Source of the DNA: Balanoglossus misakiensis
Taxonomy: Eukaryota > Animalia > Hemichordata
DNA length: 64,000 bases
Reading direction: 5' to 3'
NCBI GenBank assembly: GCA_040954595.2
Contig: CM082596.2
Coordinates: 10,560,461-10,624,460, forward strand
This document shows, piece after piece, positions 26,555 to 63,916 of the stretch (its first letter is position 1; every line of letters starts with the position of its first letter). Below the pieces are notes generated by a model. That model was not told where the DNA came from. It made no database searches and saw only the letters and a list, made by a program, of their open reading frames with translations. The translations under genes were made by a program, and so were the position numbers.

Positions 26555-26601
26555 TGAAATTTGGGTAGCTTACATGGTAACACAACTCAACAGAAAACAC
26601 T

Positions 26602-30889: not shown

Positions 30890-30892
30890 AAA

Positions 30893-35889: not shown

Positions 35890-35902
35890 AAAGAAAGAAA
35901 GG
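35890..35902 (+). other. Polypurine tract of Gypsy element 2
   Basis: AAAGAAAGAAAGG directly before the 3' LTR. Confidence 0.85.
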
Positions 35903-42412: not shown

Positions 42413-42550
42413 TAGGCCCAACCCCTTGGGTGTAATTGGGGGCGCCCTCTGTGTAGTGCGTCTTCCCGCCTTCCGGAGAGAATTGCTACTTTTGTAGGGC
42501 TTCCGCCATCTTGTAGAGTCACTTTTTCCGAGCAGTCGCTCGCTTAAAAC
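42409..42550 (+). repeat. Split direct repeat A1
   Basis: Matches 61189-61330 with one substitution. Confidence 0.95.
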
Positions 42551-42593
42551 TTCTCCCAAAAATCCGTCTTTTTCGCCGCTTTGTCGTCACAAT

Positions 42594-43751
42594 ATGTCCG
42601 ACCACTCAGACAGCGAAACTCTCCCACAGTCCGAAAGGCGGACTCCCAACTGCTCTGGCTGCAAACAAGCAGTAAAAGGGCATCGCGCTCTTGGATTACA
42701 GCCAGGCCCAAACTGCACAGGCGTGCCCCAACCGCAAGGCGCAGATGGAAGCTCTGCCATTCCCACCATATCCGTCGTCGTCGAACAGACTGGCTCACTC
42801 CAGCTCGAAGATCTACAAGCCAGACAGGCAGAACTGTTACAGGAAAAGCAACTCCTACTGCAGAAACGAGAGCAGCGTGCATTACAGACCCGCTCCAGCA
42901 TCTCAGAACTAGACCACGAACTTCCCGCCCTCCGAGTGCGGGTTGCCAACACAAGTCCCATGCAACCGCCTCCATCGATCCCTTTATCGTCGGGCAACGG
43001 CTGTCCACCAACACTGGACACCCTTCGTCAAAACCCAGCGGCCAACCAAGCAGTCGACGCACAACTCTCTCACATCGTGAATTCGGCATTTGGCGCCTCC
43101 GCATTGCCAAAGTCCATCGGACAGTCTACTCGTGCTGAATGGCCGATCGGCTACATGTCACAAGGTAAGCCAGGAAAGTCCCCTCGTGACTCTCAAGCCC
43201 CTAGCTTCGCAGACGAATCCAGAGTGAAATGGCCACATTTGCGCCTACCTCGCGAAAAAGGAGGAAAAGTCCCCAAATTCGACAACTTAACCATCGCACA
43301 ACTGGTCAGAGGTGAATTAGAAATACTCAACTCCGTCTACCTGCCCATCTCGTCTGAGGAACGCGCTCCAAGATCACTGCATCTCCAGAACTTAATGAGA
43401 CTCGCTCATAAGCACGATTGGTCAGACGTACTGAATTTCCATGGTACCATCTTAGAAAAGATACAAAGCGCAGAACTACGTTGGCAAGACTGCTTCGACC
43501 GTTATGAAAAAGAACTTCTCTCACCCGACACCCTGAAATCCGTCAAACAAGGCACTGATAGCGGCAAGACACAGGCCGTCAAGAAGAGCGATATTTGTTA
43601 CAAGTACAACCTCCAGACATGCGAATGGGGCGACAAGTGTTTTAGACGCCACATCTGCTATCGCTGTTTCAAAATTAACAACACAGCCACACCTCACAGC
43701 GGCAAAGATTGCCCACTCGCCATCAGCAAGAAGAATGACACTCCCAAATAG
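42594..43751 (+). CDS. Gag-like ORF1 of the Ngaro element (385 aa)
   Basis: Open ORF after A1; Q/L-rich coiled coil; HDWSDVLNFH helical region; C-terminal Cys/His finger CYKYNLQTCEWGDKCFRRHICYRC...H...C. Confidence 0.8.
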   Translation: MSDHSDSETLPQSERRTPNCSGCKQAVKGHRALGLQPGPNCTGVPQPQGADGSSAIPTISVVVEQTGSLQLEDLQARQAELLQEKQLLLQKREQRALQTRSSISELDHELPALRVRVANTSPMQPPPSIPLSSGNGCPPTLDTLRQNPAANQAVDAQLSHIVNSAFGASALPKSIGQSTRAEWPIGYMSQGKPGKSPRDSQAPSFADESRVKWPHLRLPREKGGKVPKFDNLTIAQLVRGELEILNSVYLPISSEERAPRSLHLQNLMRLAHKHDWSDVLNFHGTILEKIQSAELRWQDCFDRYEKELLSPDTLKSVKQGTDSGKTQAVKKSDICYKYNLQTCEWGDKCFRRHICYRCFKINNTATPHSGKDCPLAISKKNDTPK

Positions 43752-43961
43752 TAATTCACCTATTTCGGATTGAACTTCAGACGTTGGGTTGCATCCCACG
43801 TTCACAGACTACATTGTGTTCTCTCTCTTCCTCACAGAACACTTCTGCATCGGAAGAATTTTCTAGCGCTCGGTTACCGTCCAACGCTAACATTCGGGCT
43901 CCCTGGTCCCATACACCACGCCCTTCATGTATCTCAGGCCATACAGCCGCATCATCGACAT

Positions 43962-44619
43962 TGTGTCTCACTCAGCGAACGAGGACCCACCGTTCTCGTC
44001 CACTTCAAACATTGTAACAATTCCTGTGATTTCAGCTTCGCCTCTGACATCGCGGTATTTTATCATTCCGTCGAGCACTTCCCCACCTTCGGAATTTTCT
44101 TCAAACTGTGCCCAAGGAGGTCTCTACACGCCGTCGCGTCGTCATGGACCTCAACTTTCCATCATCTGACATTGTGTCTCACTCAGCGAACGAGGACCCA
44201 CCGTCCTCGTCCACTTCAAACATTGTAACAATTCCTCCGATTTCAGCTTCGCCTCTGACATCGCTGTATTTAAACTTTCCTCGAGCACGTCTCCCTCATC
44301 GGAACTTTCTTTAGCCATATATGTGTCTCACTCAGCGAACGAGGACCCACCGTCCTCATCCACTTCAAACATTGTAACAATTCCTCCGATTTCAGCTTCG
44401 CCTCTGACATCGCTGTATTTAAACTTTCCTCGAGCACGTCTCCCTCATCGGAACTTTCTTTAGCCATATATGTGTCTCACTCAGCGAACGATGACCCACC
44501 GTCCTCGTCCACTTAAAACATTGTAACAATTCCTCCGATTTCAGCTTCGCCTCTGACATCGCTGTATTTAAACTTTCCGTCGAGCACGTCTCCCTCATCG
44601 GAACTTTCTTTAGCCAATA
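43962..44619 (+). repeat. Internal tandem repeat, 4 copies of a ~149-bp unit
   Basis: TGTGTCTCACTCAGCGAACGAGGACCCACCG... starts at 43962, 44173, 44322 and 44471. Confidence 0.92.
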
Positions 44620-44627
44620 TTTGTGCC

Positions 44628-46164
44628 TTGCATGCGCAAGTTTCTACATCCGGGTTACCAAACTACCAAGGTCTCAAATATCCCGTTCCGACTAAATTAG
44701 TGTTGCCGTTATGGAGATCACTGCTGGCACATTATGCTGACAATATCATTTGTGACTATCACCATCTTGGCTGGCCTATCGGTTATACCCGTGACACGTT
44801 ACCAGTCTTCGACATCCGTAATCACCCTTCGGCCTTGATGTTTCCCGACGATGTGGACCACTTCATCAGCACTGAAGTCGCCGCTGGGGCCACAGCCGGA
44901 CCTTTCACAATCAGCTTCAAACTGTGCCCAAAAAGGACTCTTCACGCCGTCGCGTCGTCATGGACCTCAGCTTTCCAGAACACTTTCTGTCAATGACGGA
45001 ATCTCTTCAGACTTTTATGATGGTTATCACATAAAACTGTCGTACCCATCTTTAGATCATTTCTCACAAATTATCCAGGACAAAGGCCCCGGTTGCCTGT
45101 TATACAGAGAGACTTACGCCGAGCATATCGGCAAATTTTCATTGACCCTCGAGATTATAATCTCCTTGGTTTTTCATGGCATCATTTATTCTTTTTTGAT
45201 CGTGTTTTTCCCTTCGGGCTTCGCTCTGCTGCATTAGCCTGCCAACGTACCACAAATGCAGTCATGTATTTATTTAGACAGAATGGTTAGGCTGGCATCA
45301 ATTATTTAGATGATTTTGGGGGTGCAGAGGCGCCAGACAAAGCCATGGCAGCCTTTGAATCCCTTGGTCGACTTTTATCACAGCTCGGTCTAGAGGAGGC
45401 GCAGGATAAAGCAGTAGCGCCGTCCACTTGCATGGTTTTTCTCGGTATTGAATTCGACACTGTGTCTATGACCATGCGCATTCCAGCACACAAGTTATCC
45501 ACCCTACTCACAGAGCTTGATGAGTGGGACACAAAAGTCTCTGTTCCCAAGCGTCAATTTCAGTCTTTGTTAGGCAAGCTTAATTCAGTTGCCACATGTG
45601 TTCGCTCAGGACGAGTGTTTTTCTCCCGTATGTTACAGTTACTTAGACAGCAGTTTAAATCACCTCGCATTTTTCTAGATTCGCAATTCTTCGCTGCCTT
45701 AGTTTGGGGGCGTACCTTTTTACCTTTTTACAACGGAGTATCTGTTATCCCAGCTTCTAGATGGAGTACACCAGATGCCGTTTTTTTTCTACTGACGCCT
45801 GCCTCTCAGGCTGCGGGGGCTTTTCTCAAGGACTGTATTTTCACACAGAATTTCCTTTACCTGTTACTAGTCAGGGTTTACATATTAATGCGTTAGAACT
45901 TTTAACAGTGCTTGTTGCGTGTCGTCTGTGGGGCCATCTGTGGAAAGGCCAGCGCATTCAGGTGTTTTGCGATAATATGGCAACAGTCACTGTCATTAAT
46001 TCAGGTCGCTCACGAGACCTTCATATGCTTCAATATTTACGAGAGTTATGGCTAGTGTCCGCACTCAATAGTTTTGAACTTAAAGCGGTGCTATTCAGGG
46101 TCAGGATAATCGCTTAGCTGACCATTTAAGCAGATGGCACATTTCTCAGCATCACAGTTTTGAA
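44628..46164 (+). pseudogene. Ngaro reverse transcriptase / RNase H, frameshifted
   Basis: Motifs spread across frames: GWPIGY, TVPKKDSSRRRVVMDLSFP, DLRRAYRQI, PFGLRSA, NYLDDFGG (~45300), FLGIEFD, TDACLSGCGG, HINALEL, CDNMATV, ADHLSR. Several frameshifts and a TAG near 45288. Confidence 0.9.
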
Positions 46165-46198
46165 AACACAACGACATAGAAATCCCAATTTCCGAAAA
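46165..46198 (+). repeat. Left TIR
   Basis: AACACAACGACATAGAAATCCCAATTTCCGAAAA; reverse complement of 60778-60811 with 2 mismatches. Confidence 0.92.
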
Positions 46199-46727
46199 AC
46201 AAGGTTGTTTGAGATTTTTTTGACAAAATAGCTCAAAATCCTTATTAAATTATATTGATTCTTGTATATTATCAATCAAAAATTAAAAAGCTAAAAAATA
46301 TAACTTTAAACTGACTTTTTTTCTTAATATTCTTCTCAAATAAGGAAAACACTGGAATTTGTGTCTTTGGTTAATATTTAGGAAAAACATATATTTGGAA
46401 TAATTTCCCAGAATTGCCTTGTCAGACTTTTAATTTTCCTCAGAAAAAATACGCACAACTTATACTTGCTTTTATCCTTGGACAAATACTTATTTTTTTA
46501 GCATTTGTTCATAACTTGTAGCAACAAATGTTGATGAGACAAGTTTTTTTCTTGGAAATATACAAACATGTAAAGAATGGCTTTTCGGACAGAATATTTC
46601 TATAGAAAATCAGAGTTTTATTGCACTTAAAAATAATACATCAAGAATTGACAAAGAAAAATCAGAATTCAGACATTCAAAAGTGTACTTAATTTTTCTA
46701 TTGAAAAAAATGCTTTCTTTTACTGTA

Positions 46728-47638
46728 TCTCTGCCAATCGGCAGAAAGTCTGCCTTTTAGCCTTCCAAGCAAGATACAAGATAGTCAACTCTGCCAATTG
46801 GCAGAGGCCAGAGACAAGATTGCTGACTCTGCCAATCGGCAGAGGCCAGAGACAAGATGGCTGACTCTGCCAATTGGCAGAGGCTAGAGACAAGATGGTT
46901 GACTCTGCCAATCGGCAGAGGCCAGAGACAAGATGGCTGACTCTGCCAATCGGCAGAGGCCAGAGACAAGATGGCTGGCAGACAAGATGGCTGCAGACTC
47001 TGCCAATCGGCAGAGGCCAGAGACAAGATGTCTGGCAGACAAGATGGCTGGCAGACAAGATGGCTGCAGACTCTGCCAATCGGCAGAGGCCAGAGACAAG
47101 ATGGCTGGCAGACAAGATGGCTGCAGACTCTGCCAATTGGCAGAGGCCAGAGACAAGATGGCTGACTCTGCCAATTGGCAGAGGCCAGAGACAAGATGGC
47201 TGACTCTGCCAATCGGCAGAGGCCAGAGACCAGATGGCTGACTCTGCCAATCGGCAGAGGCCAGAGACAAGATGGCTGACTCTGCCAATCGGCAGAGGCC
47301 AGAGACAAGATGGCTGGCAGACAAGATGGCTGCAGACTCTGCCAATCGGCAGAGGCCAGAGACAAGATGGCTGGCAGACAAGATGGCTGCAGACTCTGCC
47401 AATTGGCAGAGGCCAGAGACAAGATGGCTGACTCTGCCAATTGGCAGAGGCCAGAGACAAGATGGCTGACTCTGCCAATCGGCAGAGGCCAGAGACAAGA
47501 TGGCTGACTCTGCCAATCGGCAGAGGCCAGTGACAAGGTGGCTGACTCTGCCAATCGGCAGAGGTCAGAGGCAAGGTGGCTGACTCTGCCAATCGGCAGA
47601 GGTCAGAGGCAAGCTGGCTGATGCTGCCAAGTGGCAGG
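46728..47638. repeat. Left subterminal 38-bp tandem array
   Basis: Unit GACTCTGCCAATYGGCAGAGGCCAGAGACAAGATGGCT; some units carry an extra GGCAGACAAGATGGCT. Confidence 0.96.
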
Positions 47639-48243
47639 ATTTTTGAAAGCACAACTATTTTTAAAGCCCCATGATCACAGATTTTTTTTACTTTTTTTCA
47701 GTATTTTTTTTGTATGTGTATGAAATCAACCTCCAGTTCTACTTCCTGAATTACGATGAAATGCACACTAAGAATCTCAACATAGTCTGTATATGATAAA
47801 TGTTAAGAATTTTGATATTATCATCTCAAATATTGCTAACAATAGGGCACAAAATACAAAAAAATACCGTCAATGAGACTGATACACTCACATTTTGGCA
47901 GAATGGGTTTTAATACTTAAATATCTGAAAACAACAAGTAGATACAAAATTAAGATACAAGTACTTCTATGTTACGAATTTGATCAGTAATTAAAGATAC
48001 AAAAACTAAATTACAACAAATAAAAAATTGTCAAAAATTAATAGAAGTTGCGCATATACATGTATGTGTTCATAAACCTGTATCCCAAATTTCAAAGCAA
48101 TCATTTTACATCACCTGATTTGAGTTATCCCTAAGACATTCCCAATAAATGTCAAGCAATAAGACAAGCAGTTTTAAACAAAACAATATTTGTTCAAAAT
48201 CAAAAACACAAATATGCAAATATCACAGAATTGTACAATGTGT

Positions 48244-51200
48244 CTAATCACTTGCTTCTTGCATAGAGACATCACTGCCAGTGTCAGCTTCATTCTCCAA
48301 ATGATACCCAAAGTTTTCAACTTTCATCCTGGCATGTTGGACTTGTTTCTCGTCGAGATCAATGCCAATGGCGTTCCTGCCGGTTGACAGAGCAGCAATC
48401 ACAGCAGATCCTGCATTGTAAATAGATGGATTTGTTACTTACTCATAAAATGCATTTAATTTACTAGAATGAAATACATTTTAACACAATACACTCTGTA
48501 TGACCTTAAAGGGACAAGCACATGTGATCATTTTGTGTGTATTTGGCTTTGACTCAGGGATAATGTTTGCATACACAAACAAGTATGATATTTACTATGA
48601 AAGTATGTGTTAGAACAAAACTTAAAAAGGTGTGTTTCCTATAACATTACACTTTAAGAGTAACATCAGTAAGTCAGAATATTCTTTTTCTACTTTTTTG
48701 TTGTTGAATGAAAATGCAATAAATTATGCTAGGAAGAAAATCTTTGCAATGTGATAGCAAAATAATCATGTTGGAATTTCATAAACAGAAAAATCCTTCC
48801 AAAAAATGCACAACAACAATATCAGTACAAACCTGTGCCACAGCATGCATCCAGGACCCATTGCTTATGGTAGGAGAATGTACTAATTATGGATTCCATT
48901 AGTTCAACTGGCTTTTGATCTGCATTGATTATCACACCATCTCCATCTCTGTCCAGTACAGGCTGTTTGCATTGCCATAGATTGTGTCGCTGTCTTGATG
49001 GTCCTGTGGCCAGGTTCCTGCTGACATGGTTGTCACTAGTCCAGTACCCGATAACAATTGGATGAACTGCCTGGGTTAGAGTTTGTGAATCTGATTGGGT
49101 AAAAGAAAAAAAAATCTCTTTGACCATTGTTTTTAAAATACACCCTCCTTTAAATGTTTGGTCAACCAATTGAAATGCAATCAACAAATAGTAAAAAAAA
49201 ATAAAAAAGTAAACAAAAAAACAGGAAAACATTTTAAAAATACAAATAAAATTATGAAACATAAACATCACTGCATCATTACACCAAACTTGGTAAATGG
49301 GTAGTGATGTTATGTCAATAATGCATACAATCTTAATTACTGACACAAAATACACTAACCTTGTCCTTTAATGTTACAGTGTGTCGATATTCTCCTGTTG
49401 CATTGTGTCTCATTGACAGCCACTGTTGCTGCTCGGTGGTGAGACCACAGTACACAACACAATTCCGTGATTTAAATCTGTCATCATTACTGTATTTTGT
49501 CATTTCACTTATTGCCTTTGTTGCACTCAGGCAATGTTGGCCACCAATCACGTTGTACGTGTAACCATTGATCTGTAAAGCAACACAGTGAACAGAATAG
49601 TGTGAGCATTGTGAAACACTGATTTTCTTTGAAGTAGTCCTGGTAATCTGCATGTCCAAATCCCAAGTACAAGCTGACAACACAGCAATACTAAAATGCA
49701 ATACTACTTAGGGGATCCAACACATTTGGCATGGCTTCTCATACTGTAGCAAAACACAGTAAGCAGTACTGAAGGATCAGAAGAAGACCTTACCTTTTTG
49801 CTATCGAATTCTTGTGGTGATTCAACCCCATCCACGATAACACACAGCGGTTGGTAGGATTCGTCAGCAAAATCCTCCATCTGCTTGATGAGGTTTTTTA
49901 AAAACACCTGATCAGGCTCTCTGATATTCCCCTTAACTTCTAAAACTTCAACACTGATCTTGTGCATACCTGTTAATTCAATTGGTAAGATGGCAAAATG
50001 TTTTACTACAATTCTAAATTCATATTATCCCATGCTACCGTCCACCCTTCTGATTGGACGAGAGCTCAACCCAGTAATGGTAATATACTGCTTTATCACG
50101 GCTAGCTGAACTAGAATGCAGTAGCGAAAATGTTGGGTTAAACCATAGGCATACGGGGGGGGGGGGGGTTATTGCTTGAATAATAAACAGTTGATTAGGA
50201 CATGTGAGAAAAAAACAGTCTTGTATTGTCACGCAATTCTTTGGGGGACCACTGGAATTTGGTTTGGGACCAGTGAAAAAAAACGGTCATATGCACTCGT
50301 CATGTGACCAGTGACAAATGAAGAAAATTCTCAGGCCCTGTACTAGACAACAATTTATTTTTTAAGGTTTGCATGTTTTCACCTATATTCATAAGCCTGT
50401 ACATACAAATTGAACAGATTTGTCTCTTTCACCCTACTCACCACAGTATGCTTGCTGCACATCTTGGGCAATAGTGTCGGGACAATCGGTGTTGGAAGTT
50501 GCCTTCTTCTTAAGTAATACACTTGACACTTCAATATTGTCATCGTGTTTTCTTCTCCTCTTCTTTTTTGTTTTTTTCAGAGATGCTGTAGATAGTGAGA
50601 AAACTGGCTTGGTAGTATCATAAAAAACTTACACAGGTCATAAATGTCCTAGTATAAACGGTTAATGCACTGCACATGGTAATAGATAAAAGTTCTACCT
50701 TTTACTACACTATAAAACACACTAGAAGTCTATTCTACAAAAATATATACATTGTACATTTGATTCAACAGGATGAACTCCAGGACCATAAGCTATAACA
50801 GAGTAAATTCAGTCCATTCAACAATGGATAATATAAACAATGGACAGCTGTGACTGTTTATCTATTTACACTCCCTCCAACTCTGGCCCAGGTGTTGTGT
50901 TAGGTGTGAAATACCATGCTGATAAAGCTTGATATGCATGGGTCTCGGATTTTGTCACCCCTTTTTTCTTATCACTCAGTATAACTCACCTTACTGTCCG
51001 CTTTTGGCATCTCCCAGAGCTAGAACTGGAACTACCTCCTTCTCCATTGCTGTCATCTGACCCCGAGTTGTCGTCTCTGTCTTCATCTAGTGATGAGTTG
51101 GTTGTGGATAAATCACTGCTGACACTAAGCCCAGCCTCCCGACGAAGATCTTTATAGAACTTCACAAATTCATCGACACTGGAATGCTCTTTGAATTTGT

Positions 51201-52194
51201 TACTGAACTCAGAGCGGTTCCACTCAAATTTTTGTCTGTTCAGGACAAATGCGTCATTTGCCCCATTTGCACCTTCAAAAAAAACCTGTGAAATGAACAT
51301 TTTCAGGCATAGATAAGAAAGGTGACATGCTATAAACAACAAAAAAAAAGGTTGTTCTCCAAACCACTGACCAGCAAAACCAGATATTTGGGAAAGGGTT
51401 GTTCCCTAATTTAGTGACAGTGACTTCGATTTTGCGTAGAAAGCAGTATACTGTGACTAGCAAAATATGTCAATCCATCAGTCTGAATGTAATGCTGTGA
51501 ACAAACAGTCTCTGAACGTAGCTCTGCGTACAGGTCTGTGTGTTCCCGGCGTGGTGGAGGCCGTGTAACGCCGGGAGCACACAGACCTGTACGCAAGGCT
51601 ATCTCTGAACGCAGTGCATGAGGCCTTATTATTCGGCCCCGAGAACACAAGCATATATCAGCCGGTAAAGGTTCCAGCTTGATGCGTTTTTTTTATAGCT
51701 TTGACGACCATGAATATCGGTCTTATACACGGAAACAGAGACTGAGAGAGTCCCCTCTTTCCGTGTACATGTATTTTGACCCGAGTTTTAGAAAATAGAA
51801 CTTGAAGACAAGCGACTTTGGATGACGACCATTCTTACCTTGATATGTGTGTCCTTGTACGCTTTACAAGTTTTAACCGGCCCGAACGGTTCACCATTTC
51901 GCTTGTTGACAAGCCTTGAAGTTTTCTTGGATTCGTGGACATTGACGTAAATACGTCGATCTTCCTCAACAAACCACCAAGCACGCATTTTTTCAATGAT
52001 AGAACAGTATAACGTTGGAAAGTTTTCGCTGTGCATGCACTCTTCTCACTCTCAGGTCTGAATCGAAACTGTGAGCACTTAGCGCAAATCGTCGGTATAA
52101 ATACCATCGCTGTACACAGAAACAATAGAATTTTTTGTCGTTCTATTGTCGAAATTTCCGGCAATCCATAGATTTTCCATTGTTTCATAGACAT
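48244..52194 (-). CDS. Spliced cargo gene: acidic/basic N-terminus, ParB/Srx-like domain and C-terminal half of a beta-class N6A/N4C DNA methyltransferase (probably incomplete; 5' end uncertain)
   Basis: GT-AG exons on the minus strand: ~52036-51839, 51285-~50990, 50585-50442 (KKTKKKRRRK), 49969-49794 (NIREPDQVFLKNLIKQME...QPLCVIV), 49572-49360 (YNVIGGQHCLSATK...CVVY...HN), 49090-48833 (HNLWQ...QKPVELMESIISTFSYHKQWVLDACCGTG), 48410-48244 (SAVIAALSTGRNAIGIDLDEKQVQHA...TAG). The last junction is in phase and rebuilds SAM-binding motif I. Confidence 0.72.
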
Positions 52195-52638
52195 GTTTAT
52201 ACGTTTCGGCGATTCACACCTTTGCCTCGCGTGCGGCCTCCGTGCCTGGATACGAGTTCTTAACCCTTAACCTTTACTATATTCAAATAAGCATCCCAGA
52301 AGAGGTAAATCATTACAGTGTAGGTTGACCCAGCCTGGAAAAAGCACTTCAATGATTGACTATTTTTCAATAAAATAATACAATCTGACAGATATATGTT
52401 ACTGAAATCTTTCATGCGTTATGAATTTAAAGTATGACTACTTTCTAGTATTTCTAGCTGGTAAAAGTCCAGTTGTTTCCCATACTTGACCGATACTTTG
52501 GATCGGAAACCCCTTCAATTGAATGGAATCTACTAGCTCGTCACATCACCAAACTAAGCTTGGTGCACGGCGTTTGAGGTCAGGTCTACTGCAAGGTACG
52601 TTCGGTCGTGTACGGGGCCATATTCTGGGCCCGTCAGC
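52195..52638. promoter_or_regulatory. Putative bidirectional promoter region between the divergent cargo and transposase genes
   Basis: Inferred only from the head-to-head gene arrangement and local CpG enrichment around both 5' exons. Confidence 0.35.
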
Positions 52639-55600
52639 ATGTCCCGTTCAAATGATTCTTTCAACGATACAAGCATTTTTTCGATATCCAACACCACTAC
52701 ACAATTTTCTTCAAGCTACGAAGAAGATCCGCAGCCTGCCTCCCGCTCCCCCGTGGTGAACGCTGAACTGGTGGTATCTCTCTGTCAACCCGACATCACG
52801 AACGCTAGTTCGATCAACGCACAATCACCCCACGGTGGAGTGACCGTGATCAACGGCAGTAATTTGTCATCAACCAGTACGCAATATGATTCAAATGACG
52901 AAGATATCGTACTGAGCGATCGTTCGCTCGAAAATACGTGCTCACTTCTGCAATTTGACAGCGACGATGACCTGGAGCTGGAATTCATGCCAGTGGCCTC
53001 ATCAAGTCCTCGCCCACAACGTCAACGGATTTCTGCACCTAAACGGCGTCGAATTTCTCAGCCGATTAGAGACCCACTATCAGTATTGTGCCAGCAGTGT
53101 TGTAGTGACTCGTGTATGGACCATTTGTCAAAGCACGATGTGACGGCTGCAGAACGAAAATATAAAGCGTTGGGCAACGAAACAAAACAGCGCCAGTATA
53201 TTCTTGACACAATTCGACAACATTCGTTCAAAAGGTATCTGTCAACTTCAAGTTCAAGTTCAAGGAGGAGAAAAGTTGTGGTTGAGACCAACTTGGTGTT
53301 GATGGGCCGACCGGTTTGTCCTGCAGCTTGGCGGCATGTTCACAACGTCAGCGAATACCGCTGGAAAAGCTGTGAACTGGACTTTATCAAAGGTTTGTTT
53401 TCACACTATTTAATAATCACTCAGTTAAAAAGCGAAAGAGTTGCAAATTGTAACACTATTTTCACGAAATGTTTGGAGTCATATACTATTGATACTTTTT
53501 TGTGCATTTTAGCAAGAAGAATGGAATTTTTTTTCCAGTAAAGAGTTCTGTATTCAGATATTACTTTACTCACAAGTGTGTGTTGCAATGTGCAGCTAAT
53601 ACAATATTGATCATTTTCTACTCAGACATAGAAGCTGTTGAACATAAGAATATTTGGAGGACAGGCTTTAAAGACAAAACCACAGATGCAATTGCTTGGA
53701 TGCGTCATCTATTTGAACGCATAGGTGATTACATGCCACATAAGGAAGAGATTCATCTGCCATCATGCTACACGAAGAAGTCCCTGTATGAACGCATGAC
53801 AAAGGAGATGAAAGCCCGTGGTCATCCTGAAAGACATATTATTTGCTATGATTATTTCACCAGGATATGGAGTATCCATCTCTCAGAGTTCATTATACCA
53901 AAGGTACATTTAATCTTATTGATAATAATATATTATTTTTATTATAAAAACACACTACATAGCTATACTGCCTGTAGTCAATGTGACACACGTCCAATTT
54001 TACTGTCTGTCTGCTGACTTTAGTACATTAACAAAATAATTTTTTTGTACATCAATCTTGCAGAGAAATGAATTTGTGAAGTGTACTGACTGCACAGAAC
54101 TAGAAGAATTGGTGGCGAAAGCTAAAACAGACCATGAAAGAACAAGAGTCCGGTCACTCATGACTCTACACATGGAGCAAGTAGAGTAAGTAAAGTTTGT
54201 GTTGTTATCCTATATTTGGCTCACATTTGGTATACCAATCCAGGGGTCTCTGCACGTGCCCTTTTTACTTGCTGGAAGGAAAAATCTGCTTGCCCACCAT
54301 CTTGGATCAACTTAGCTATGGTGTATACCTTATTTTGTATGTGTAATTGTCTCTAAGTACCCTTTCCATCTCAAAATTATTTCGAAGCCCACCCCACCCC
54401 CCAAAAGATTGCTTGGCAGCATGTTTCAATTGTTGTCATGTATTAGTTTTGAGGGGGACCTATACTTTTCGACGTAAAAAGGGTCCTTGGACTCGCTTTG
54501 TGTAATCGCTAGTGCTATTCCAGAATCCAGACATGGGATTTAACAAGAAGATTTCAAATTGCAGATTTAGAATTTTCACATTCCATAATGTGAGCACCTT
54601 TGTCTCAAGTAATTTTTAATTTTATATTATCTGTTTGTTAAGAACTGAACGCAAGCGATACCACTACAACCGAGAAAGAGCAGAGAAGGAGCCAGAGGAA
54701 ATGTTGACTATTATAATCGATGGAATCGACCAGAACAAAACAAACTTGCCTCATCTGTACAAGGAAGACAAGAGTACCAGCAATCTACTGCGTCTCAGAA
54801 CACATATTACAGGTGCGTTGACCGTGTATGGATTTGTGAACTGATTAAGTCTTTCTTAACACATCCATTGGACTATCCAATAATTGTAAATTATTCACAT
54901 TGTGGTTTATCAATTAATGAACAGTAGCCATAGTGCCATGAATTTCATTTTATATTGTACTCTCAAAGTCATGTCAAAATGCACAGTGTTGTACAATTAC
55001 CTTTAACTGGGATGTGTGTGATGCCCTCTAATACTGACAAATTTATGTTAGTATTTAATTGTAGAATTAATTTGTAGCCTTTTAAAGTACAAATGAGAAA
55101 CTTACCAGATAGGTGTTACTGTATTGTCAATAATTGCAGCTATTCTTTAATTAACCCTTTCACCCCCAGTTCCCTGTGTAGAGGTCCAACTTCATTATAG
55201 AAACAAATGGACTTAGGACAAACCGTGGTGGTGAAAGGGTTAAGCATGATTTCCAGGCGGTTAGTGACATGTAACTATTTAAGTTGTGTTTCAGTATGAA
55301 CATCTTGTCACTGTTGTAAGGTTTCAAGTACCATGTTTTTTTATTTATTTCAGGGTCCCTTGTGCATACTGGTGTAACTGGTGGCAAAATACCTTTTGTA
55401 TATTTGGATGTCAACCACATTCCACATGACTCCAACCTCACTATGAATGTGCTTCTTGAAATCCTCAATGAATGTGGTGATCATTTAGCCAAGGTATTAT
55501 ACTTACAACTCGACAACTGCTTCCGTGAAAATAAAAACAGATATTTACTGTCCCTTCTGCAACTACTGGTTCAACTCGACATATTTGAAGAGGTAAGTTG

Positions 55601-58600
55601 ATTATTAATTGGCATGTCAGTCTTTTGTTTAATTTTTAGCTTTCCTGTCAGTAATGGTGGAGCTTGTCAGACAGGCGGATTGTCCTCTGTCTTCCGCCTG
55701 TCTTCTTCTCTTCTCTGAAATCCCTTTTAGTGAAATTTGCAGTTATCAGCTGGGCCTACTCAACTCATACCATGCAAACGTTATAATAATTTAGAAATAT
55801 TTTACAGTACATCTTTAAACTATTTACTAAATTTGTGGCATGGAAGTTTACTTACAAAATTTCAACATTTCAAAATACATCTTAGGTATTCACTCATTCA
55901 TGTGAGCGAATCCAAAGATGGTATTGGATGTATATATTTATATATATATATATATAATTATCTATGTTTATAATAACAGGTGTTAGTGAACTTTCTACCC
56001 GTTGGACACACGCACGAAAATGTCGACCAGATGTTCTCGAAAATTGCAACGGAACTGAGAAGAACAAATGCATACACCATAAATGGTAATATGTTGTGAT
56101 ATTAAATATTTTATATAACCCTGTGTAGTTGTTAAAGGGGAAATCCAGTCCAGCTGATTTATATATAATGTGGTAGCTTTGAGGTCACTCTTTCAGAAAA
56201 ATAACAACATTTTTTCGCCATGTTTAAGTCGCGTGATATTTTACAAACTTATGAGGGAAAGTTGGCAGAAGTTCCAGTATGGCGTTTACTGTAATTTGAA
56301 TCATGGGAAAAATACAGGGCGAATGTTTTTTTCAATGGCAACAATTTCTTTTTTTCCATAAAGCCACAGTATCAGTGATTGTTGGCTATTGGTTTTTGTT
56401 CCTTGTTTCAACAGTCTTGTCTTGTTCAACTACTCAAAGTACAGTGAAATGCCAAATATCTAGTTTCTCAACACAGCCATTATGTGTACAATAAGCAATA
56501 TTATTGTTGACAATATGAACATATATGGTCCATTTTTTTTTGGGGGGGGGTCAAGATTGTACTTATGATATTGACGTTGACAGTATCTTGTTTTATCAGA
56601 TCTGGAGAGCACAGTTGTGGGATCGTACACGCCTGTTATCAAATGGAGAAATCTTACAGAGAAACCCATCCTGAATATTAAAGAATGGCTGATACCCCAC
56701 ATGGCTGGGAAAATGCAGGGACATTCCAAACAGCATAACTTCAGATTTTACAAGGCTAATGGTGTTGCTTTCATGCAGTATAGACTGTGGTCTACTGATC
56801 CTTGGGAGCCAAGCCAGATGGATGAGAATGGGGAACAACTTCCAGGAATCAACTGTTTTAAGGTGAGATTTTCAACACTCATCACAAACAGATAGAGACC
56901 CTTGATGTAACCTATCACAAACAGTCCCTTGATGTAACCAATGTTTGCTTGTCTTTCACTGTATAACAAGAGCCCCAACCAATAATTTGGTGAGATGACA
57001 TATTATGGTTTTAGCTCTATCTGTCTGGATTCATTTCACATATGTGCCTACATCAGTTTTGGCCCCTGGAAAATATATGTGGACATACATATGAATGGCA
57101 TATTTTTTTTCACAATGCGACCAAAATGGCCATTCAGCAGCCATATTATTACCAATAGCCATTACTCAAAATATTCAAGAACTGATATTGTTGATGTTTG
57201 GGTTACGTCCGTCCAGAGTGAGTTCTCAGAAGTGCCTGGACCGAATTCATTCAAACTTGGTACAAAGACAGAACAAAACAGAACTCAACAAATTATCAAA
57301 TAAATTAAGTAAAGTTGCTTTACTCAAAACATCCATTTTCCTTTCAGAGTATGCCATGTCTGGATGATGTGCCGGCCTATGTGCTTCCAAGCATTGAAAA
57401 ACTGGATGTGAATTCTTTGAGGAGAGACGTACCCAATGGATTTGGTGTCAGAATGCCACCGTCTGGAGTACAATGGTGGAATAACTTCCTTCGTAATGTG
57501 GAAGATATTGAAAAGGTAGCTACAAAGACAATTCTTATTAAAACTTGTGTACTAGTATTTAGTTGAAAACAAAAAGTGAATCCATGTGAATATCTCTTTA
57601 TATATTATTGCGTGAATACATGGTAACTCTCGTTGGCTCACATTTGGCATACCAATGTGTGTATAGTATAACAAGGCATCTGAATGTGACAGTGACATTG
57701 TCACTATTTTGTAACTTTAACCATCAATGAGCATGTCAGTCAGCTAACACAAATAATGTATTGCTGTCCTTTCAATAATTCCAGGTTCCCACTCAATCAG
57801 AAGAGTTATGGCTGCTGCCCCAAATAAAGGAAAAAGCAGAAAGAAAGAAGGCTGACAGACAATGTCTTCAAAATGAAGAACTTGACAGTCAAGTGTCAAA
57901 AATTAGAGAAAAGTTGACAAGAACGTGTCAGGAGGTGAGCTACAAAAAATGGTGTAATATTTCCCAACAACACGCATTGACATATTTTAAGTATTTCTAT
58001 TGACATCTTGTGATTACCATGTCATTTTAAACTCATCAAGTAAACAGAAGGTTTTTTGTGCAAGGTGACTGTTTGAGAAATTATCATTTACTTTTGCCAG
58101 AAAGTGGAACAGAAAAAAGTTTTGTTGAATAGCAAAAAATACATGGACTGATGACTTGTTAAATAGCAATTTTTAATATTAACCTTATATGCACTTTCAT
58201 TACATGCAGACATTGTCGTTTTCTTAGGAGAGTGGCTAATCATAAATCATCATTTCAATCTACAGATTACTGTCCAGGGGATGCGGCCCACCATTCATCA
58301 TGTTGACAGCTATGACTGTATTAGTGTTGGTGACATGGTTGCAGTTTACTGTCCGACGTACACAGAGATTCCTCAAATTGGAAAAGTGACGGAAAGAAGG
58401 GAACAAGAATTTGTCCTCCAATGGTATGAAGGGACATGGACAAGTTCCTGGAAACCATCCTACCAAACCCAGGGAAGGAAGCAGGTGCTGTACACGGACA
58501 CACAACCAGTTCATGCAGCAATTTTTGGGGGGTTCAAACTAAATGGCAGAAAGATGCTGGGTAAAGAAACAAAGCTTGTCCTACAAGAAAAGTACAAGAA

Positions 58601-58625
58601 TGCCATATCAAATATTGTGCAATAG
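52639..58625 (+). CDS. 10-exon DD(D/E) transposase, Sola1-like, about 869 aa, with a C-terminal Tudor/SH3-like domain
   Basis: Exons 52639-53392, 53626-53903, 54064-54185, 54643-54812, 55354-55592, 55980-56085, 56600-56862, 57348-57515, 57785-57934 and 58266-58625. All junctions are GT-AG and phase-compatible, 2610 nt in total. Motifs: VCPAAW, HLP, KCTDC...H, IIIDGIDQ, LQLDNCFRENKN, FLPVGHTHENVDQMFS. Confidence 0.85.
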
Positions 58626-58916
58626 ACTATTATTTAAAGAATAATGTATGCCACAAAGACTGGACTGGACTCCTTGTTTTGTAGTAAATTACATTTTTGT
58701 GTTTTTAAGAGATAACAATGTCACCAAACACTGTTAAAATGATTAAAGATTTATGAAACCAAACTTTCTCTTTAATTAATCGATTTAGTGCCAGAGAGAG
58801 AAAGAGAGAACAAAAGTGACTTTGTACGTTGTGATGGATGTTTCTTAGTTGATGACATAAACTTTACCAGTCTCCCTGCCAATAGTGAGTGGGTGGATTA
58901 CACAGTGTACCAGTAG

Positions 58917-60495
58917 GGCCCGGAAATCTTGCTGATTAGCAGGGAGTCTAGTACAGCCTGGACGTCTTGCCAATTGGCAGAGAGTCTAGTACAGCGTGGA
59001 CGTCTTGCCAATTGGCAGAGTCTTGTACAGCTTGGAAATCTTGCCGATTGGCAGAGAGTCTTGCACAGCCTGGACATCTTGCCAATTGGCAGAGAGTCTT
59101 GTACAGCTTGGAAATCTTGCCGATTGGCAGAGAGTCTTGTACAGCTTGGAAATCTTGCCGATTGGCAGAGAGTCTTGCACAGCCTGAAAATCCTGCCAAT
59201 TGGCAGAGAGTCTTGTACAGCCTGGAAATCTTGCCAATTGGCAGAGAGTCTTGTACAGCCTGGAAATCTTGCCAATTGGCAGAGAGTCTTGTACAGCCTG
59301 GAAATCTTGCCAATTGGCAGAGAGTCTTGTACAGCCTGAAAATCCTGCCAATTGGCAGAGAGTCTTGCACAGCCTGAAAATCCTGCCAATTGGCAGAGAG
59401 TCTTGCACAGCCTGGACATCTTGCCGATTGGCAGAGAGTCTAGTACAGCCTGGACATCTTGCCGATTGGCAGAGAGTCTTGTACAGCCTGAAAATCTTGC
59501 CGATTGGCAGGAGTCTTGTACAGCCTGAAAATCCTGCCAATTGGCAGAGAGTCTTGCACAGCCTGAAAATCCTGCCAATTGGCAGAGAGTCTTGCACAGC
59601 CTGGACATCTTGCCGATTGGCAGAGAGTCTAGTACAGCCTGGACATCTTGCCGATTGGCAGAGAGTCTTGTACAGCCTGAAAATCTTGCCGATTGGCAGG
59701 AGTCTTGTACAGCCTGAAAATCTTGCCGATTGGCAGGAGTCTTGTACAGCCTGAAAATCCTGCCAATTGGCAGAGAGTCTTGTACAGCCTGAAAATCTTG
59801 CCGATTGGCAGAGAGTCTTGCACAGCCTGGACATCTTGCCGATTGGCAGGAGTCTTGTACAGCCTGAAAATCTTGCCAATTGGCAGAGAGTCTTGTACAG
59901 CCTGAAAATCTTGCCGATTGGCAGGAGTCTTGTACAGCCTGAAAATCCTGCCAATTGGCAGAGAGTCTTGTACAGCTTGGAAATCTTGCCGATTGGCAGA
60001 GAGTCTTGCACAGCCTGGACATCTTGCCGATTGGCAGAGAGTCTTGTACAGCCTGAAAATCCTGCCAATTGGCAGAGAGTCTTGTACAGCCTGGAAATCT
60101 TGCCGATTGGCAGAGAGTCTTGCACAGCCTGGACATCTTGCCAATTGGCAGAGAGTCTTGTACAGCCTGGAAATCTTGCCGATTGGCAGGAGTCTTGTAC
60201 AGCCTGAAAATCCTGCCAATTGGCAGAGAGTCTTGTACAGCTTGGAAATCTTGCCGATTGGCAGAGAGTCTTGCACAGCCTGGACATCTTGCCAATTGGC
60301 AGAGAGTCTTGTACAGCCTGGAAATCTTGCCGATTGGCAGGAGTCTTGTACAGCCTGAAAATCCTGCCAATTGGCAGGGAGTCTTATACAGCCTGGAAAT
60401 CCTGCCGATTGGCAGAGAGTCTTGTACAGCTTTGAAATCTTGCCGATTGGCAGGGAATTCTAAGTCGTTACACTATTCCTGCCAATTGGCAAGAT
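58917..60495. repeat. Right subterminal 38-bp tandem array (about 40 units)
   Basis: Unit CTTGCCRATTGGCAGAGAGTCTTGTACAGCCTGGAAAT with 36-bp variants; its core is the inverted counterpart of the left array core. Confidence 0.96.
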
Positions 60496-60777
60496 TTTTA
60501 AGCTATGCAAGACTCCCTCCACATTGACAATTGAAGTGTGCTTGTTTTTCTGTTGAAAAAAGTCACATGAAATTTATCATCCCTCAAACTTATCTTTTAT
60601 TCAATAAAAATAATAATAAGTGGTGTTTAATGTAACTCTTATGAACTTTTCCATTGAAAAATCTATTTCAAAATTTCTTTTTGACCACCATGGGTTTTTT
60701 CAAAGGAATTTCGTAATTTATGTTTGGGCTGACATTGATAATGAGTATTTCCATACAAAAATCCGATTTTATCTTCG

Positions 60778-60811
60778 TTTTCGAAAATTGGAATTTCTAT
60801 GTCGTTGTGTT
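60778..60811 (-). repeat. Right TIR
   Basis: TTTTCGAAAATTGGAATTTCTATGTCGTTGTGTT. Confidence 0.92.
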
Positions 60812-60899
60812 TGAATTTCATGAGTTAACCAATAGTATGCATGTGATAGAGGTGGCAGTGCCAGTCACATATTTCACTAATTTTCACTATGACTTCTAG
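60812..60899 (+). pseudogene. C-terminal remainder of the Ngaro RT/RNase H ORF
   Basis: Continues the frame of ADHLSRWHISQHHSFE as FHELTNSMHVIEVAVPVTYFTNFHYDF*. Confidence 0.7.
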
Positions 60900-60975
60900 T
60901 AAGTTCCTAGGCAGTTTTGTATTTTACTCGCTAATGGGAACTCCCTGAATGCTTCCCCTCCCCTGGTTTGGCGGC

Positions 60976-61192
60976 TTGGAGCTGGTTTTGTCAAACTCTT
61001 TTTCATCTGCATATTAAAGATTTTGCCAAGTTTCCGCCAACCCATGAGTGTGTCGCATTCTGTTCCTTCCCATTAGCCCACTAGTTTTCAAGCATTTATA
61101 CTGTTCGAGTGTTTCAGGTGTATTTGTATGCAAGACGTGTTTTCCTGTACAATTATTATATAAGTAGAGTTCCACAGAGGCAGCCACTAATT
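60976..61192 (+). repeat. Split direct repeat B1
   Basis: 217 bp; matches 61414-61630 with one substitution; overlaps A2 by AATT. Confidence 0.95.
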
Positions 61193-61330
61193 TAGGCCCA
61201 ACCCCTTGGGTGTAATTTGGGGCGCCCTCTGTGTAGTGCGTCTTCCCGCCTTCCGGAGAGAATTGCTACTTTTGTAGGGCTTCCGCCATCTTGTAGAGTC
61301 ACTTTTTCCGAGCAGTCGCTCGCTTAAAAC
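61189..61330 (+). repeat. Split direct repeat A2
   Basis: Copy of A1, directly after B1. Confidence 0.95.
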
Positions 61331-61413
61331 CCCACCCACCACTACCCATGGCTTTTCCTTGTATGTTTGTTATATTTATTTTATTTACCTTTATTCACAT
61401 GGTTTATAAGTGG

Positions 61414-61630
61414 TTGGAGCTGGTTTTGTCAAACTCTTTTTCATCTGCATATTAAAGATTTTGCCAAGTTTCCGCCAACCCATGAGTGTGTCGCATTCTG
61501 TTCCTTCCCATTAGCCCACTAGTTTTCAAGCATTTATACTGTTCGAGTGTTTCAGGTGTATTTGTATGCAAGACGTGTTTTCCTGTACAATTATTATATA
61601 AGAAGAGTTCCACAGAGGCAGCCACTAATT
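61414..61630 (+). repeat. Split direct repeat B2 (element 3' end)
   Basis: Copy of B1, followed directly by satellite. Confidence 0.95.
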
Positions 61631-63916
61631 GTAAACAGAATACAATATCATTTATGAAGTCAATGTGAACAACTTTACTTGAAGTCAGTACATTGTAAAC
61701 AGAATACCAGAGTTGTAATGATTTGTCTGATCACAATATGTCTATAGACACATCATGTACATGGACATGAATGCAAGAATGGACACATATCATTTAAAAA
61801 GTCAATGTGAATAATTTTACTTGAAGTCAGTTCATTGTAAACAGAATACCAGAGTTGTAATAATTTGTCTGATCACAATATGTCTATAGACACATCACGT
61901 ACATGGACATGAATGCAAGAATGGACACAGATCATTTATGAAGTCAACATGAACAACTTTATTTGATGTCAGTACATTGTTAACATAATACCACAGTTGT
62001 AATAATTTGTCTGGTCACAATATGTCTATGGACACATCATGTACATGGACATGAATGCAAGAATGGACACAGATCATTTATAAAGTCAATGTGAACAATT
62101 TACTTAAAGTCAGTACATTGTAAACAGAATACCACAGTTGTAATATTTTGTCTGCTCACAATATTTCTATAGACACATCACGTACATGGACATGAATGCA
62201 AGAATGGACACAGATCATTTATGAAGTCAATGTGAACAACTTTACTTGAAGTCAGTACATTGTAAACAGAATACCACAGTTGTAATAATTTGTCTGCTCA
62301 CAATATGTCTACAGACACATCACATACATGGACATGAATGCAAGAATGGACACAGATCATTTATGAAGTCAATGTGAACAACTTTACTTGAAGTCAGTAC
62401 ATTGTAAACAGAATACCAGAGTTGTAACAATTTGTCTGGTCACAATATGTCTATAGACACATCATGTACATGGACATGAATGCAAAAATGGACCCAGATC
62501 ATTTATGAAGTCAATATGAACAAATTTATTTGATGTCAGTACATTGTAAACAGAATACCACAGTTGTAATAATTTGTCTGGTCACAATATGTCTATAGAC
62601 ACATAATGTACATGGACATGAATGCAAGAATGGACACAGATCATTTATGAAGTCAATGTGAACAACATTACTTGAAGTCAGTACATTGTAAACAGAATAC
62701 CAGAGTTGTAATAATTTGTCTGGTCACAATATGTCTATAGACACATCCTGTACATGGACATGAATGCAAGAATGGACCCAGATCATTTATGAAGTCAATA
62801 TGAACACATTTATCTGATGTCAGTACATTGTAAAAAAATACCAGAGTTGTAATAATTTGTCTGGTCACAATATGTCTATAGACACATCACGTACATGGAC
62901 ATGAATGCAAGAATGGACACAGATCATTTATGCAGTCAATGTGAACAACTTTACTTGAAGTCAGTACATTGTAAACAGAATACCACAGTTGTAATAATTT
63001 GTCTGGTCACAATATGTCTATAGACACATCACGTACATGGACATGAATGCAAGAATGGTCACAGATCATTTATGAAGTCAACGTGAACAACTTTACTTGA
63101 AGTCAGCACATTGTAAACAGAATACCACAGTTGTAATAATTTGTCTGCTCACCATATGTCTATAGACACATCACGTACATGGACATGAATGCAGGAATGG
63201 ACACAGATCATTTATGAAGTTAATGTGAACAACTTTACTTGAAGTCAGTACATTGTAAACAGAATGCCAGAGTTGTAATAATTTGTCTGATCACAATATG
63301 TCTATAGACACATCATGTACATGGACATGAATGCAAGAATGGACACAGATCATTTATGAAGTCAATGTGAACAACTTTACTTGAAGTCAGTACATTGTAA
63401 ACAGAAGACCAGAGTTGTAATAATTTTTTTGGTCACAATATGTCTATAGACACATCACGTACATGGACATGAATGCAAGAATTGACACAGATCTTTTATG
63501 AAGTTAATGTGAACAACTTTACTTGAAGTCAGTACATTGTAAACAGAGTACCAGAGTTGTAATAATTTTTTTGGTCACAATATGTCTATAGACACATCAC
63601 GTACATGGACATGAATGCAAGAATGGACACAAATCATTTATGAAGTCAATGTGAACAACTTTACTTGAAGTCAGTACATTGTAAACAGAATACCAGAGTT
63701 GTAATAATTTGTCTGATCGCAATATGTCTATAGACACATCACGGACATGGACATGAATGCAAGATTGGACACAGATCATTTATGAAGTCAATATGAACAA
63801 CTTTACTTGAATTCAGTACATTGTAAACAGAATACCAGAGTTGTATTAATTTGTCTTATCACAATATGTCTATAGACACATCACGTACATGGACATGAAT
63901 GCAAGAATGGTCACAG
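61627..63916. repeat. 142-bp satellite array, more diverged (about 16 monomers)
   Basis: Same monomer and orientation with many private substitutions; the first monomer is internally deleted; ends near 63916. Confidence 0.97.

What the first reader, a model, noticed from the sequence alone, without database searches (positions are those of the whole stretch)
46165..60811. Large two-gene TIR transposon whose ends fit no superfamily cleanly
Seen: 14,647 bp, 34-bp TIRs starting AACACAACG, a TGAA duplication (a 2-bp GA duplication with AAAC termini fits equally well), subterminal arrays and divergent genes. Known: DNC..xNKN and FL..GH.....D motifs and 4-bp TSDs are Sola1-like, but Sola1 prefers AWWT targets and is usually a single-gene element. 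Subterminal arrays plus an accessory gene are more typical of CACTA/EnSpm. Inference: possibly a distinct or poorly characterised lineage with a DGxDQ / LDNC.RENKN / GHTHE.VDQ transposase.
Basis: partly seen in the sequence, partly recalled or inferred. Interest (0 to 1): 0.78.

Follow-up and report, generated by a model that had tools for sequence, protein, structure and literature searches.

The report
Animal Sola1-like transposon with ParB-methylase cargo
This is a real 14.6-kb jumping gene, likely from a marine invertebrate and likely of the Sola1 group, with an unbroken transposase gene and an internally deleted passenger gene whose complete relatives join a likely bacterial-type ParB DNA-binding module to a methylase-shaped domain predicted to act on the palindrome arrays at both ends, a design so far described in algae.

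Summary
In detail: a 14,647-bp element with TIRs 32/34 identical, a TGAA duplication, two 38-bp arrays, an unbroken 869-aa DUF7869 transposase and a divergent second gene. Flanks of other insertions favour AACAC termini and a 4-bp duplication that usually ends in A.

It is a ParB-like plus N6/N4 amino-methyltransferase-like fusion. This copy lacks about 270-300 residues, including the catalytic loop. Four of four homologs covering that loop read D-x-P-x-x-W, not DPPY.

Both arrays share one palindrome (61 copies there, 0 elsewhere in the window), a candidate ParB site.

The design closely matches Ectocarpus Sola1-1_Ec32 (AACCG termini, 4-bp TSD biased to end in A, opposite-strand ParB-methylase gene). 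So this is not a new superfamily and not CACTA, but a Sola1-like variant in animals. My paper searches found no animal report. This scan noted the same design earlier on other DNA (e1-6729163, e1-6729164).

Side finding: the transposase's last exon matches the C-terminus of human NIPBL (E 1.7e-9).

The parts
46161..46164 (+). left target-site duplication TGAA
   Evidence: empty site carries one copy
46165..46198 (+). left TIR, starts AACAC
   Evidence: 32/34 identical to right TIR; other insertions break at 46163-46165
46732..47637 (.). left subterminal array, 38-bp period, 20 exact copies of palindrome TGCCRATYGGCA (21 with one mismatch)
48244..49090 (-). gene 2 last two exons (49090-48833, 48410-48244): C-terminal part of an N6/N4 amino-methyltransferase-like domain with SAM-loop-like LDACCGTG; 5' boundary uncertain, coding remnant may start near 49130
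   Evidence: Pfam PF01555 E 2.4e-5, below the curated cut-off; PHROG methyltransferases E 9e-5 to 1.5e-3; tblastn to P0018, P0011, P0050
49091..49359 (-). 269-bp gap where homologs have about 270-300 residues (helical linker and catalytic half of the methylase): internal deletion
49360..49969 (-). gene 2 exons 4-5 (49969-49794, 49572-49360): ParB/Srx-like domain with IGGQH motif
   Evidence: 48-52% identical to P0018 202-335; P0018 hits ParB-like PHROGs at E 3.3e-4 and 5e-3; the window exons alone hit no PHROG
50442..51988 (-). gene 2 exons 1-3 (51988-51839; 51285 to 51036 or 50990; 50585-50442): N-terminal globular domain and acidic/basic linker; exon 2 donor ambiguous
   Evidence: alignment A3; donor options
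51989..52638 (.). intergenic region, likely bidirectional promoter (CpG o/e 1.06 against 0.37-0.47 in most of the gene bodies)
   Evidence: function inferred
52639..58625 (+). 869-aa DUF7869 (Sola1-like) transposase, 10 exons; predicted catalytic D411, D495, D537
   Evidence: 57% identical to Saccoglossus P0002 over 796 columns
58266..58625 (+). last transposase exon: domain similar to the extreme C-terminus of human NIPBL
   Evidence: E 1.7e-9 alone, 5.7e-15 with profile A1
58918..60491 (.). right subterminal array, 38-bp period, 41 exact copies of the same palindrome
60778..60811 (-). right TIR
60812..60815 (+). right target-site duplication TGAA

Best explanation
This is a 14.6-kb multi-copy TIR element that likely moves by cut-and-paste using its Sola1-like DUF7869 transposase, leaving a likely 4-bp duplication, and whose head-to-head accessory protein (ParB-like plus methylase-like in complete relatives, internally deleted here) is predicted to bind the palindrome repeated in both end arrays. 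Shown: ends, duplication, empty site, further insertion flanks, both gene models, the deletion in gene 2, the shared palindrome, and a CcrM-like predicted fold in the full-length homolog. Inferred steps: (1) D411/D495/D537 form the DDD active site. (2) The ParB-like domain loads on the 38-bp-spaced palindromes as ParB does on parS, marking the element's own ends to aid synapsis or keep them out of silent chromatin. (3) The methylase-like domain is more likely a non-catalytic or atypical DNA-binding module than a normal DPPY enzyme. (4) This copy would at most make a ParB-only protein of about 315 aa, so any methylase-domain function would come in trans or be dispensable. My odds: about 0.85 for Sola1-like of the Sola1-1_Ec32 kind, about 0.45 for ParB binding to the arrays.
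For: Transposase exons 5-7 hit DUF7869 above the curated cut-off. The published Sola1 profile reads ilysDncagqNknsfvlaall at states 82-102, which matches YLQLDNCFRENKNRYLLSLL by eye. Of six contigs with loose ends at 46163-46165, two lack the A at 46164, and none of the 12 listed rows breaks at 46166-46167; 5 of 7 flanks, this copy included, end in A. Sola1-1_Ec32 has AACCG termini, a 4-bp TSD biased to end in A, 21,549 bp and an opposite-strand ParB plus N4/N6 methylase gene. Full-length homolog P0018 (Ptychodera, 722 aa) aligns collinearly to gene 2; its C-terminal domain is predicted to fold like CcrM (Z 12.9, rmsd 3.2, 159 aligned). One phage family, phrog_498, weakly matches the ParB part of P0047 (E 0.0046) and strongly the methylase part of P0044 (E 4e-12). 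The palindrome occurs 20 + 41 times in the arrays and 0 times elsewhere in 64 kb, while one left/right unit pair agreed at only 10 of 26 positions outside it. Red-algal Plavaka elements have inverted-repeat arrays next to ParB-like genes. Partners elsewhere: Saccoglossus transposase P0003 and accessory P0050 both lie on a 576,650-bp scaffold; locus L004 has a transposase and an accessory-like exon on opposite strands.
Against: The target is not the AWWT called a Sola1 hallmark. The Sola1 profile prefers 'gq' where this lineage has 'RE'. No tree with reference Sola1 proteins was possible. The TIR is about 34-40 bp against 282 bp in Ec32. TSD length was not read from paired flanks; 11 loose-end rows were hidden, X1 and X2 are one sample, and the decisive row is a consensus of two contigs at 0.7 agreement. 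ParB support is weak: best E 3.3e-4 for P0018, 0.015-0.044 for P0047 and P0050, no Pfam ParB hit, and the predicted ParB region was too poor for a fold match. Only 1 of 80 metagenome loci gave a clear accessory-gene hit (most are short), and in L004 it is tail-to-tail with no methylase part found. Same scaffold length is not adjacency. Nothing shows expression or binding.
Confidence: 0.6

Rival explanations
1. Same element class, but intact family members encode an active amino-methyltransferase with an unusual catalytic loop that writes 4mC or 6mA on the element's own arrays or promoter as an anti-silencing or self-marking signal.
For: D, P and W of the loop are kept in 4 of 4 homologs from two hemichordates and a starfish. 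A SAM-loop-like [LF]D...G.G motif is present in 19 homologous proteins (a list that includes near-copies). The fold matches active beta-class enzymes. The Ectocarpus authors propose this role for their protein. 26 CAATTG sites lie in the arrays.
Against: None of the 4 homologs has the aromatic residue of DPPY/SPPY (motif recalled, not from a call), and the SAM loop has C in place of F. This copy lacks the catalytic half yet has near-perfect TIRs and an unbroken transposase. P0018 and P0050 as annotated end before or within the SAM-binding part.
Confidence: 0.17
2. The arrays are transposase-binding sites, as in CACTA or hAT subterminal repeats, and gene 2 is a decaying passenger with no role in transposition.
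For: Gene 2 is broken in this copy, and many homologs in the databases are fragments. Subterminal transposase sites are common in DNA transposons (recalled).
Against: The pairing of a ParB-like gene with palindrome arrays recurs in unrelated superfamilies (Plavaka). The ParB-like part is 48-52% identical to the Ptychodera protein and has no stop codon within its exons.
Confidence: 0.13
3. The DGxDQ/RENKN transposases form a lineage separate enough from Sola1 to count as their own group.
For: A distinct, conserved motif set across 80 loci; target not AWWT; 'RE' is a minority state in the Sola1 profile.
Against: The core matches the Sola1 profile around the second aspartate. Sola termini are described as very variable with 4-bp TSDs. 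An element with matching ends and cargo was curated as Sola-1 with best hit Sola1-1_PPa.
Confidence: 0.08
4. An EnSpm/CACTA-type element with a 2-bp duplication.
For: GA is a possible 2-bp duplication; two opposite-strand genes and 2-bp TSDs occur in Ectocarpus EnSpm families.
Against: The termini are not CAC; boundaries at 46167/60809 give no duplication; no listed flank breaks at 46167; the only Pfam family passing its cut-off in the transposase exons is DUF7869.
Confidence: 0.02

Closest known systems
Sola1-1_Ec32 of Ectocarpus (PMC12477816; passages, part of the reference list and supplement table rows read; figures and FASTA supplements not seen)
   Same: AAC-starting termini, 4-bp TSD biased to end in A, giant size, opposite-strand gene fusing ParB-like and N4C/N6A methyltransferase domains
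   Different: Brown alga against a likely invertebrate; 21.5 against 14.6 kb; 282-bp against about 34-40-bp TIR; 1104-aa accessory protein against about 750 aa expected here (722 aa in P0018) and deleted in this copy. Whether Ec32 has arrays or a DPPY motif was not seen.
Canonical Sola1 (Bao et al. 2009, not held, recalled; definitions read second-hand as passages in PMC10741241 and PMC3845634; profile states 82-107 read in the PMC5751038 supplement)
   Same: DDD-type core with D-N-C-x-x-x-N-K-N, 4-bp TSD, variable termini
   Different: Target not AWWT, RENKN rather than GQNKN, second gene, arrays, larger than the usual 2-9 kb
Red-algal Plavaka (EnSpm) with PAG2/PAG3 (bioRxiv 10.1101/2025.02.11.637652; passages read, supplements closed)
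   Same: ParB-like accessory gene next to tandem arrays of inverted repeats; a PF01555 methylase domain on the element
   Different: Different superfamily; there ParB is fused to a 2OG oxygenase and the methylase to SET, in separate genes
Beta-class amino-methyltransferases CcrM, M.MboII, M.RsrI, M.PvuII and bdelloid N4CMT (PMC8885841, passages read)
   Same: Permuted fold (Z 9.6-12.9), PF01555 match
   Different: Catalytic loop reads D[VMF]P[NDKE]xW; ParB-like fusion; transposon-borne rather than a host gene; no activity shown

Membership tests
Sola1 (canonical) | 4-bp target-site duplication | tested here: met
   TGAA duplication; 2 of 6 other flanks exclude an AAAC terminus; paired flanks not available
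Sola1 (canonical) | Sola1 catalytic-core profile around the second Asp | tested here: met
   By eye only, 21 profile states against residues 491-510; no score computed
Sola1 (canonical) | AWWT target preference | tested here: not met
   TGAA here; 5 of 7 flanks end in A. Filed therefore as Sola1-like of the Ec32 kind, not as canonical Sola1
Sola1 (canonical) | Nests among Repbase Sola1 transposases in a tree | not testable with these tools
   No reference sequences available; the tree has none
Sola1-1_Ec32 kind | AAC-starting termini and TSD biased to end in A | tested here: met
   AACAC against AACCG, 3 of 5 bases shared
Sola1-1_Ec32 kind | Opposite-strand ParB-like plus amino-methylase gene | tested here: met
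   internally deleted in this copy
Sola1-1_Ec32 kind | Direct protein homology to the Ec32 transposase and accessory protein | not testable with these tools
   FASTA supplements cannot be read
Sola2 | DF.ENY / SDG...QYKN / FATSHGK motifs | tested here: not met
   By eye against the Sola2 alignment, part 1 of 2
Sola3 | TTAA duplication, GAG termini, long TIRs (recalled) | tested here: not met
   TGAA, AACAC, about 34-bp TIR; definition from recall, protein not compared
EnSpm/CACTA | CAC termini with 2-3-bp TSD | tested here: not met
   definition
Active beta-class N6A/N4C methyltransferase | Permuted methyltransferase fold | tested here: met
   Model of homolog P0018: CcrM Z 12.9, rmsd 3.2, 159 aligned; Foldseek E 6.8e-6
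Active beta-class N6A/N4C methyltransferase | DPPY/SPPY catalytic motif (recalled) | tested here: not met
   Region absent in this copy; DVPN, DVPD, DMPK, DFPE in 4 of 4 homologs covering it
ParB/Srx | Profile match to ParB families | tested here: inconclusive
   PHROG ParB-like hits at E 3.3e-4 to 0.044 in P0018, P0047, P0050; none in Pfam or NCBIfam
ParB/Srx | ParB fold | tested here: inconclusive
   Region modelled at pLDDT about 37-71; no Foldseek match at E <= 0.001
ParB/Srx | Binds a palindromic parS-like site | not testable with these tools
   Candidate site only

The most novel reading that the evidence does not exclude
Deuterostome Sola1-like giant transposons carry a bacterial-derived ParB/parS-like self-recognition system: the ParB-like protein loads on the element's own palindrome arrays and its methylase-shaped domain, active with an unusual loop or repurposed as a reader, protects or assembles the ends. 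In addition, the C-terminal domain of these transposases is the source, or a captured copy, of the extreme C-terminus of the vertebrate cohesin loader NIPBL.
Probability: 0.3. Interest if true: 0.8.

Novelty: new variant of a known kind. Interest (0 to 1): 0.5.

Why it matters
[quoted passage not shown] An animal family with a single sharply defined candidate site and full-length proteins in sequenced hemichordates makes the self-marking idea directly testable. It also widens the known spread of PF01555-type genes in animals beyond bdelloid N4CMT, which was reported to have no eukaryotic homologs. The NIPBL match could point to a transposon origin for part of a cohesin loader. This particular copy is a poor experimental subject because its accessory gene is deleted.

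Tried and rejected
No whole genome is held for this window, so insertions could not be tabulated. No RNA holder was listed; this is no evidence on expression, and all exon models are predictions.

Whether other copies share the gene 2 deletion stays open; no contigs could be laid on that part.

A word-index search with gene 2 exon 6 found none of 39 candidates. The full HMMER search found 23 proteins; at least one, P0019, is a spurious repeat protein and was left out of alignments.

Viral contigs gave 0 loci in two scans. The prokaryote scan with A3 could not run for lack of a conserved stretch.

A TIR plus 4-bp TSD scan of 18 of the 80 metagenome loci gave no convincing complete element.

The tree of 22 core sequences (7 window or named proteins plus the 15 of 80 loci that had all three motifs in one segment) places the window protein with Ptychodera and Saccoglossus proteins (98/93), but it has no reference superfamilies and long branches meet.

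The ParB fold search was inconclusive and the wider structural search never ran. The protein atlas did not complete. The match of A3 to a Gordonia phage methylase N-terminus was picked by the same query at E 0.6 and is not independent support.

Bao 2009 and the journal version of the Bostrychia paper are not held. The Majorek supplement search gave nothing on Sola1. PMC9004415 has no mention of NIPBL or Sola. PMC4738411 passages describe other ParB-linked methylase clades but not this one.

A CAC terminus with an imperfect 8-bp duplication was considered and rejected: it needs two substitutions, and no listed flank breaks at 46167.
Full report
Observation. The element runs 46165-60811 (14,647 bp) with TGAA on both sides; 46164-60812 with GA on both sides fits this one insertion equally well, and four other boundary pairs give no duplication. 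The TIRs are identical for 19 bases and 32 of 34. Both subterminal arrays have a 38-bp period. The element sits in the RNase H region of a DIRS-like retrotransposon, itself inside a 142-bp satellite. Contigs of runs X1 and X2 read from 46164 directly into the sequence starting at 60816, so the empty site exists and the insertion added 14,651 bp. These runs are one sample and may be the window's own source.

TSD length. One search lists 12 of 23 loose-end rows. Six contigs enter the element at 46163 (1), 46164 (1 + 2) or 46165 (2). The two at 46165 lack the A at 46164, which an AAAC terminus would require. None of the listed rows breaks at 46166 or 46167, which a CAC terminus would predict; one further contig breaks at 46173. 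With this copy, 5 of 7 flanks end in A. This favours AACAC termini and a 4-bp duplication biased to end in A. It is not a paired-flank count, and some contigs may be right ends or duplicates between the two runs.

Transposase. Ten exons, all introns GT-AG, give 869 aa without a stop. Exons 5-7 hit DUF7869. The closest proteins come from Saccoglossus, Ptychodera and Apostichopus (57% identity to P0002 over 796 columns), so the host is likely a marine invertebrate. The lineage is broad: 209 of 320 pattern matches in metagenomes were confirmed, and 62 of the 80 loci kept show DGMDQ in their best segment. The published Sola1 profile (PMC5751038 supplement, part 59 of 94, states 82-107) reads ilysDncagqNknsfvlaall and matches residues 491-510 by eye, except 'RE' for 'gq'. 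Sola2 motifs differ (PMC3627910 supplement, part 1 of 2). Sola is described as DDD with 4-bp TSDs and very variable termini (PMC10741241 passages). AWWT is called a Sola1 hallmark (PMC3845634 passages) and is not met here.

Gene 2. Seven exon-like segments on the minus strand (51988-48244) align collinearly with Ptychodera P0018 (722 aa) and Saccoglossus P0047/P0050. Exons 4-5 match a region with weak ParB-like PHROG hits (E 3.3e-4 for P0018). Exons 6-7 match the C-terminal part of PF01555; homologs P0044, P0011 and P0020 pass the curated cut-off. A model of P0018 (mean pLDDT 57, higher in the C-terminal domain) matches CcrM at Z 12.9, rmsd 3.2, 159 aligned, followed by other beta-class enzymes. 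P0018 residues 336 to about 620-638 have no counterpart in the element, and only 269 bp separate exons 5 and 6. This copy is therefore internally deleted and lacks the catalytic half. Splicing exon 5 to the acceptor at 49090 shifts the frame and stops near residue 316. The exon 2 donor and the exon 6 5' edge are ambiguous without RNA. In the 4 homologs that cover the catalytic loop it reads DVPN, DVPD, DMPK or DFPE followed by xW, not the DPPY/SPPY of active enzymes (motif recalled).

Arrays. The two arrays share TGCCRATYGGCA: 20 exact copies on the left, 41 on the right, none elsewhere in the 64 kb even with one mismatch allowed. One unit pair compared agreed at 10 of 26 positions outside the core. 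A conserved palindrome at fixed spacing in otherwise unrelated units suggests a protein-binding site. Which protein binds is not shown.

Comparison. Sola1-1_Ec32 of Ectocarpus is 21,549 bp with AACCG-CGGTT termini, a 4-bp TSD biased to end in A, best hit Sola1-1_PPa, and an opposite-strand 1104-aa ParB plus N4C/N6A methylase gene (PMC12477816 passages and supplement rows). The paper was in my first listing; I read it after an earlier scan note pointed to it. Its FASTA supplements could not be read and would allow the direct homology test. Bostrychia Plavaka elements have inverted-repeat arrays beside ParB-like genes (bioRxiv passages; supplements closed). Five searches (listings only) showed no paper reporting such cargo in an animal transposon; Repbase Reports and most subscription journals are outside the library. 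Earlier scan notes describe the same design on other DNA; I did not check their sequences.

Linkage in other genomes is only suggested. Saccoglossus P0003 and P0050 share a scaffold length of 576,650 bp, and Ptychodera P0004/P0005 and P0018 share a 53-Mb chromosome. Of 80 loci, only L004 had a clear accessory-like hit, tail-to-tail and with no methylase part found.

Side result. The last transposase exon matches residues 1541-1621 of the 1642-aa human NIPBL chain in PDB 6wge (E 1.7e-9; about 24 of 81 identical by eye; E 5.7e-15 with profile A1), with a weak MSL3 hit at E 0.45. The domain was found in 6 of 80 loci. One paper search (listing only), one paper check and the scan's notes showed no report of this link. 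The direction of transfer is unknown.

Verdict. A real, probably recently mobile Sola1-like transposon of the Sola1-1_Ec32 design in an animal, with a broken accessory gene in this copy. Not a new superfamily and not CACTA. New variant of a known kind; interest 0.5.

Noticed in passing
window 58266-58622: The transposase C-terminal domain matches the extreme C-terminus of human NIPBL (E 1.7e-9) and weakly MSL3; a Saccoglossus cluster-mate (P0049) is auto-named Nipped-B-like. Possible domestication or capture.
   Followed up: partly
window 42413-46164 and 60816-61646: Host DIRS-like retrotransposon with split direct repeats (217-bp repeat at 60976 and 61414; start sequence repeated near 61190), frameshifted RT/RNase H and no tyrosine recombinase ORF seen; depth suggests many copies.
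   Followed up: partly
window 26370-36305: Gypsy-like retroelement ORFs on both strands, apparently one element nested in or beside another, inserted in the satellite.
   Followed up: no
window 1-26369, 36306-42412, 61647-63916: 142-bp satellite, about 245 copies, 93% matches; possibly centromeric or heterochromatic.
   Followed up: no
window 51285-51988 (P0018/P0047 residues 1-110): The N-terminal domain of the accessory protein is modelled confidently and weakly resembles PH-like folds (Z up to 6.1; Foldseek E 0.02), below the level that shows kinship.
   Followed up: partly
window 51989-53392: CpG o/e 1.06-1.13 in the intergenic region and first transposase exon against 0.37-0.47 in the rest: CpG-island-like promoter in an otherwise CpG-depleted element.
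   Followed up: no
L004 4083-4367: Accessory-like exon tail-to-tail with a DUF7869 transposase, ending before any methylase part: a different gene arrangement in the same lineage.
   Followed up: partly
window 46207-46780: The deepest contig differs from the window's left end at 23 of 540 bases plus 7 gaps, and a second lower-depth variant exists: at least two subfamilies.
   Followed up: no
window 44173-44625: 149-bp tandem repeat, 3 copies, inside the DIRS-like element.
   Followed up: no
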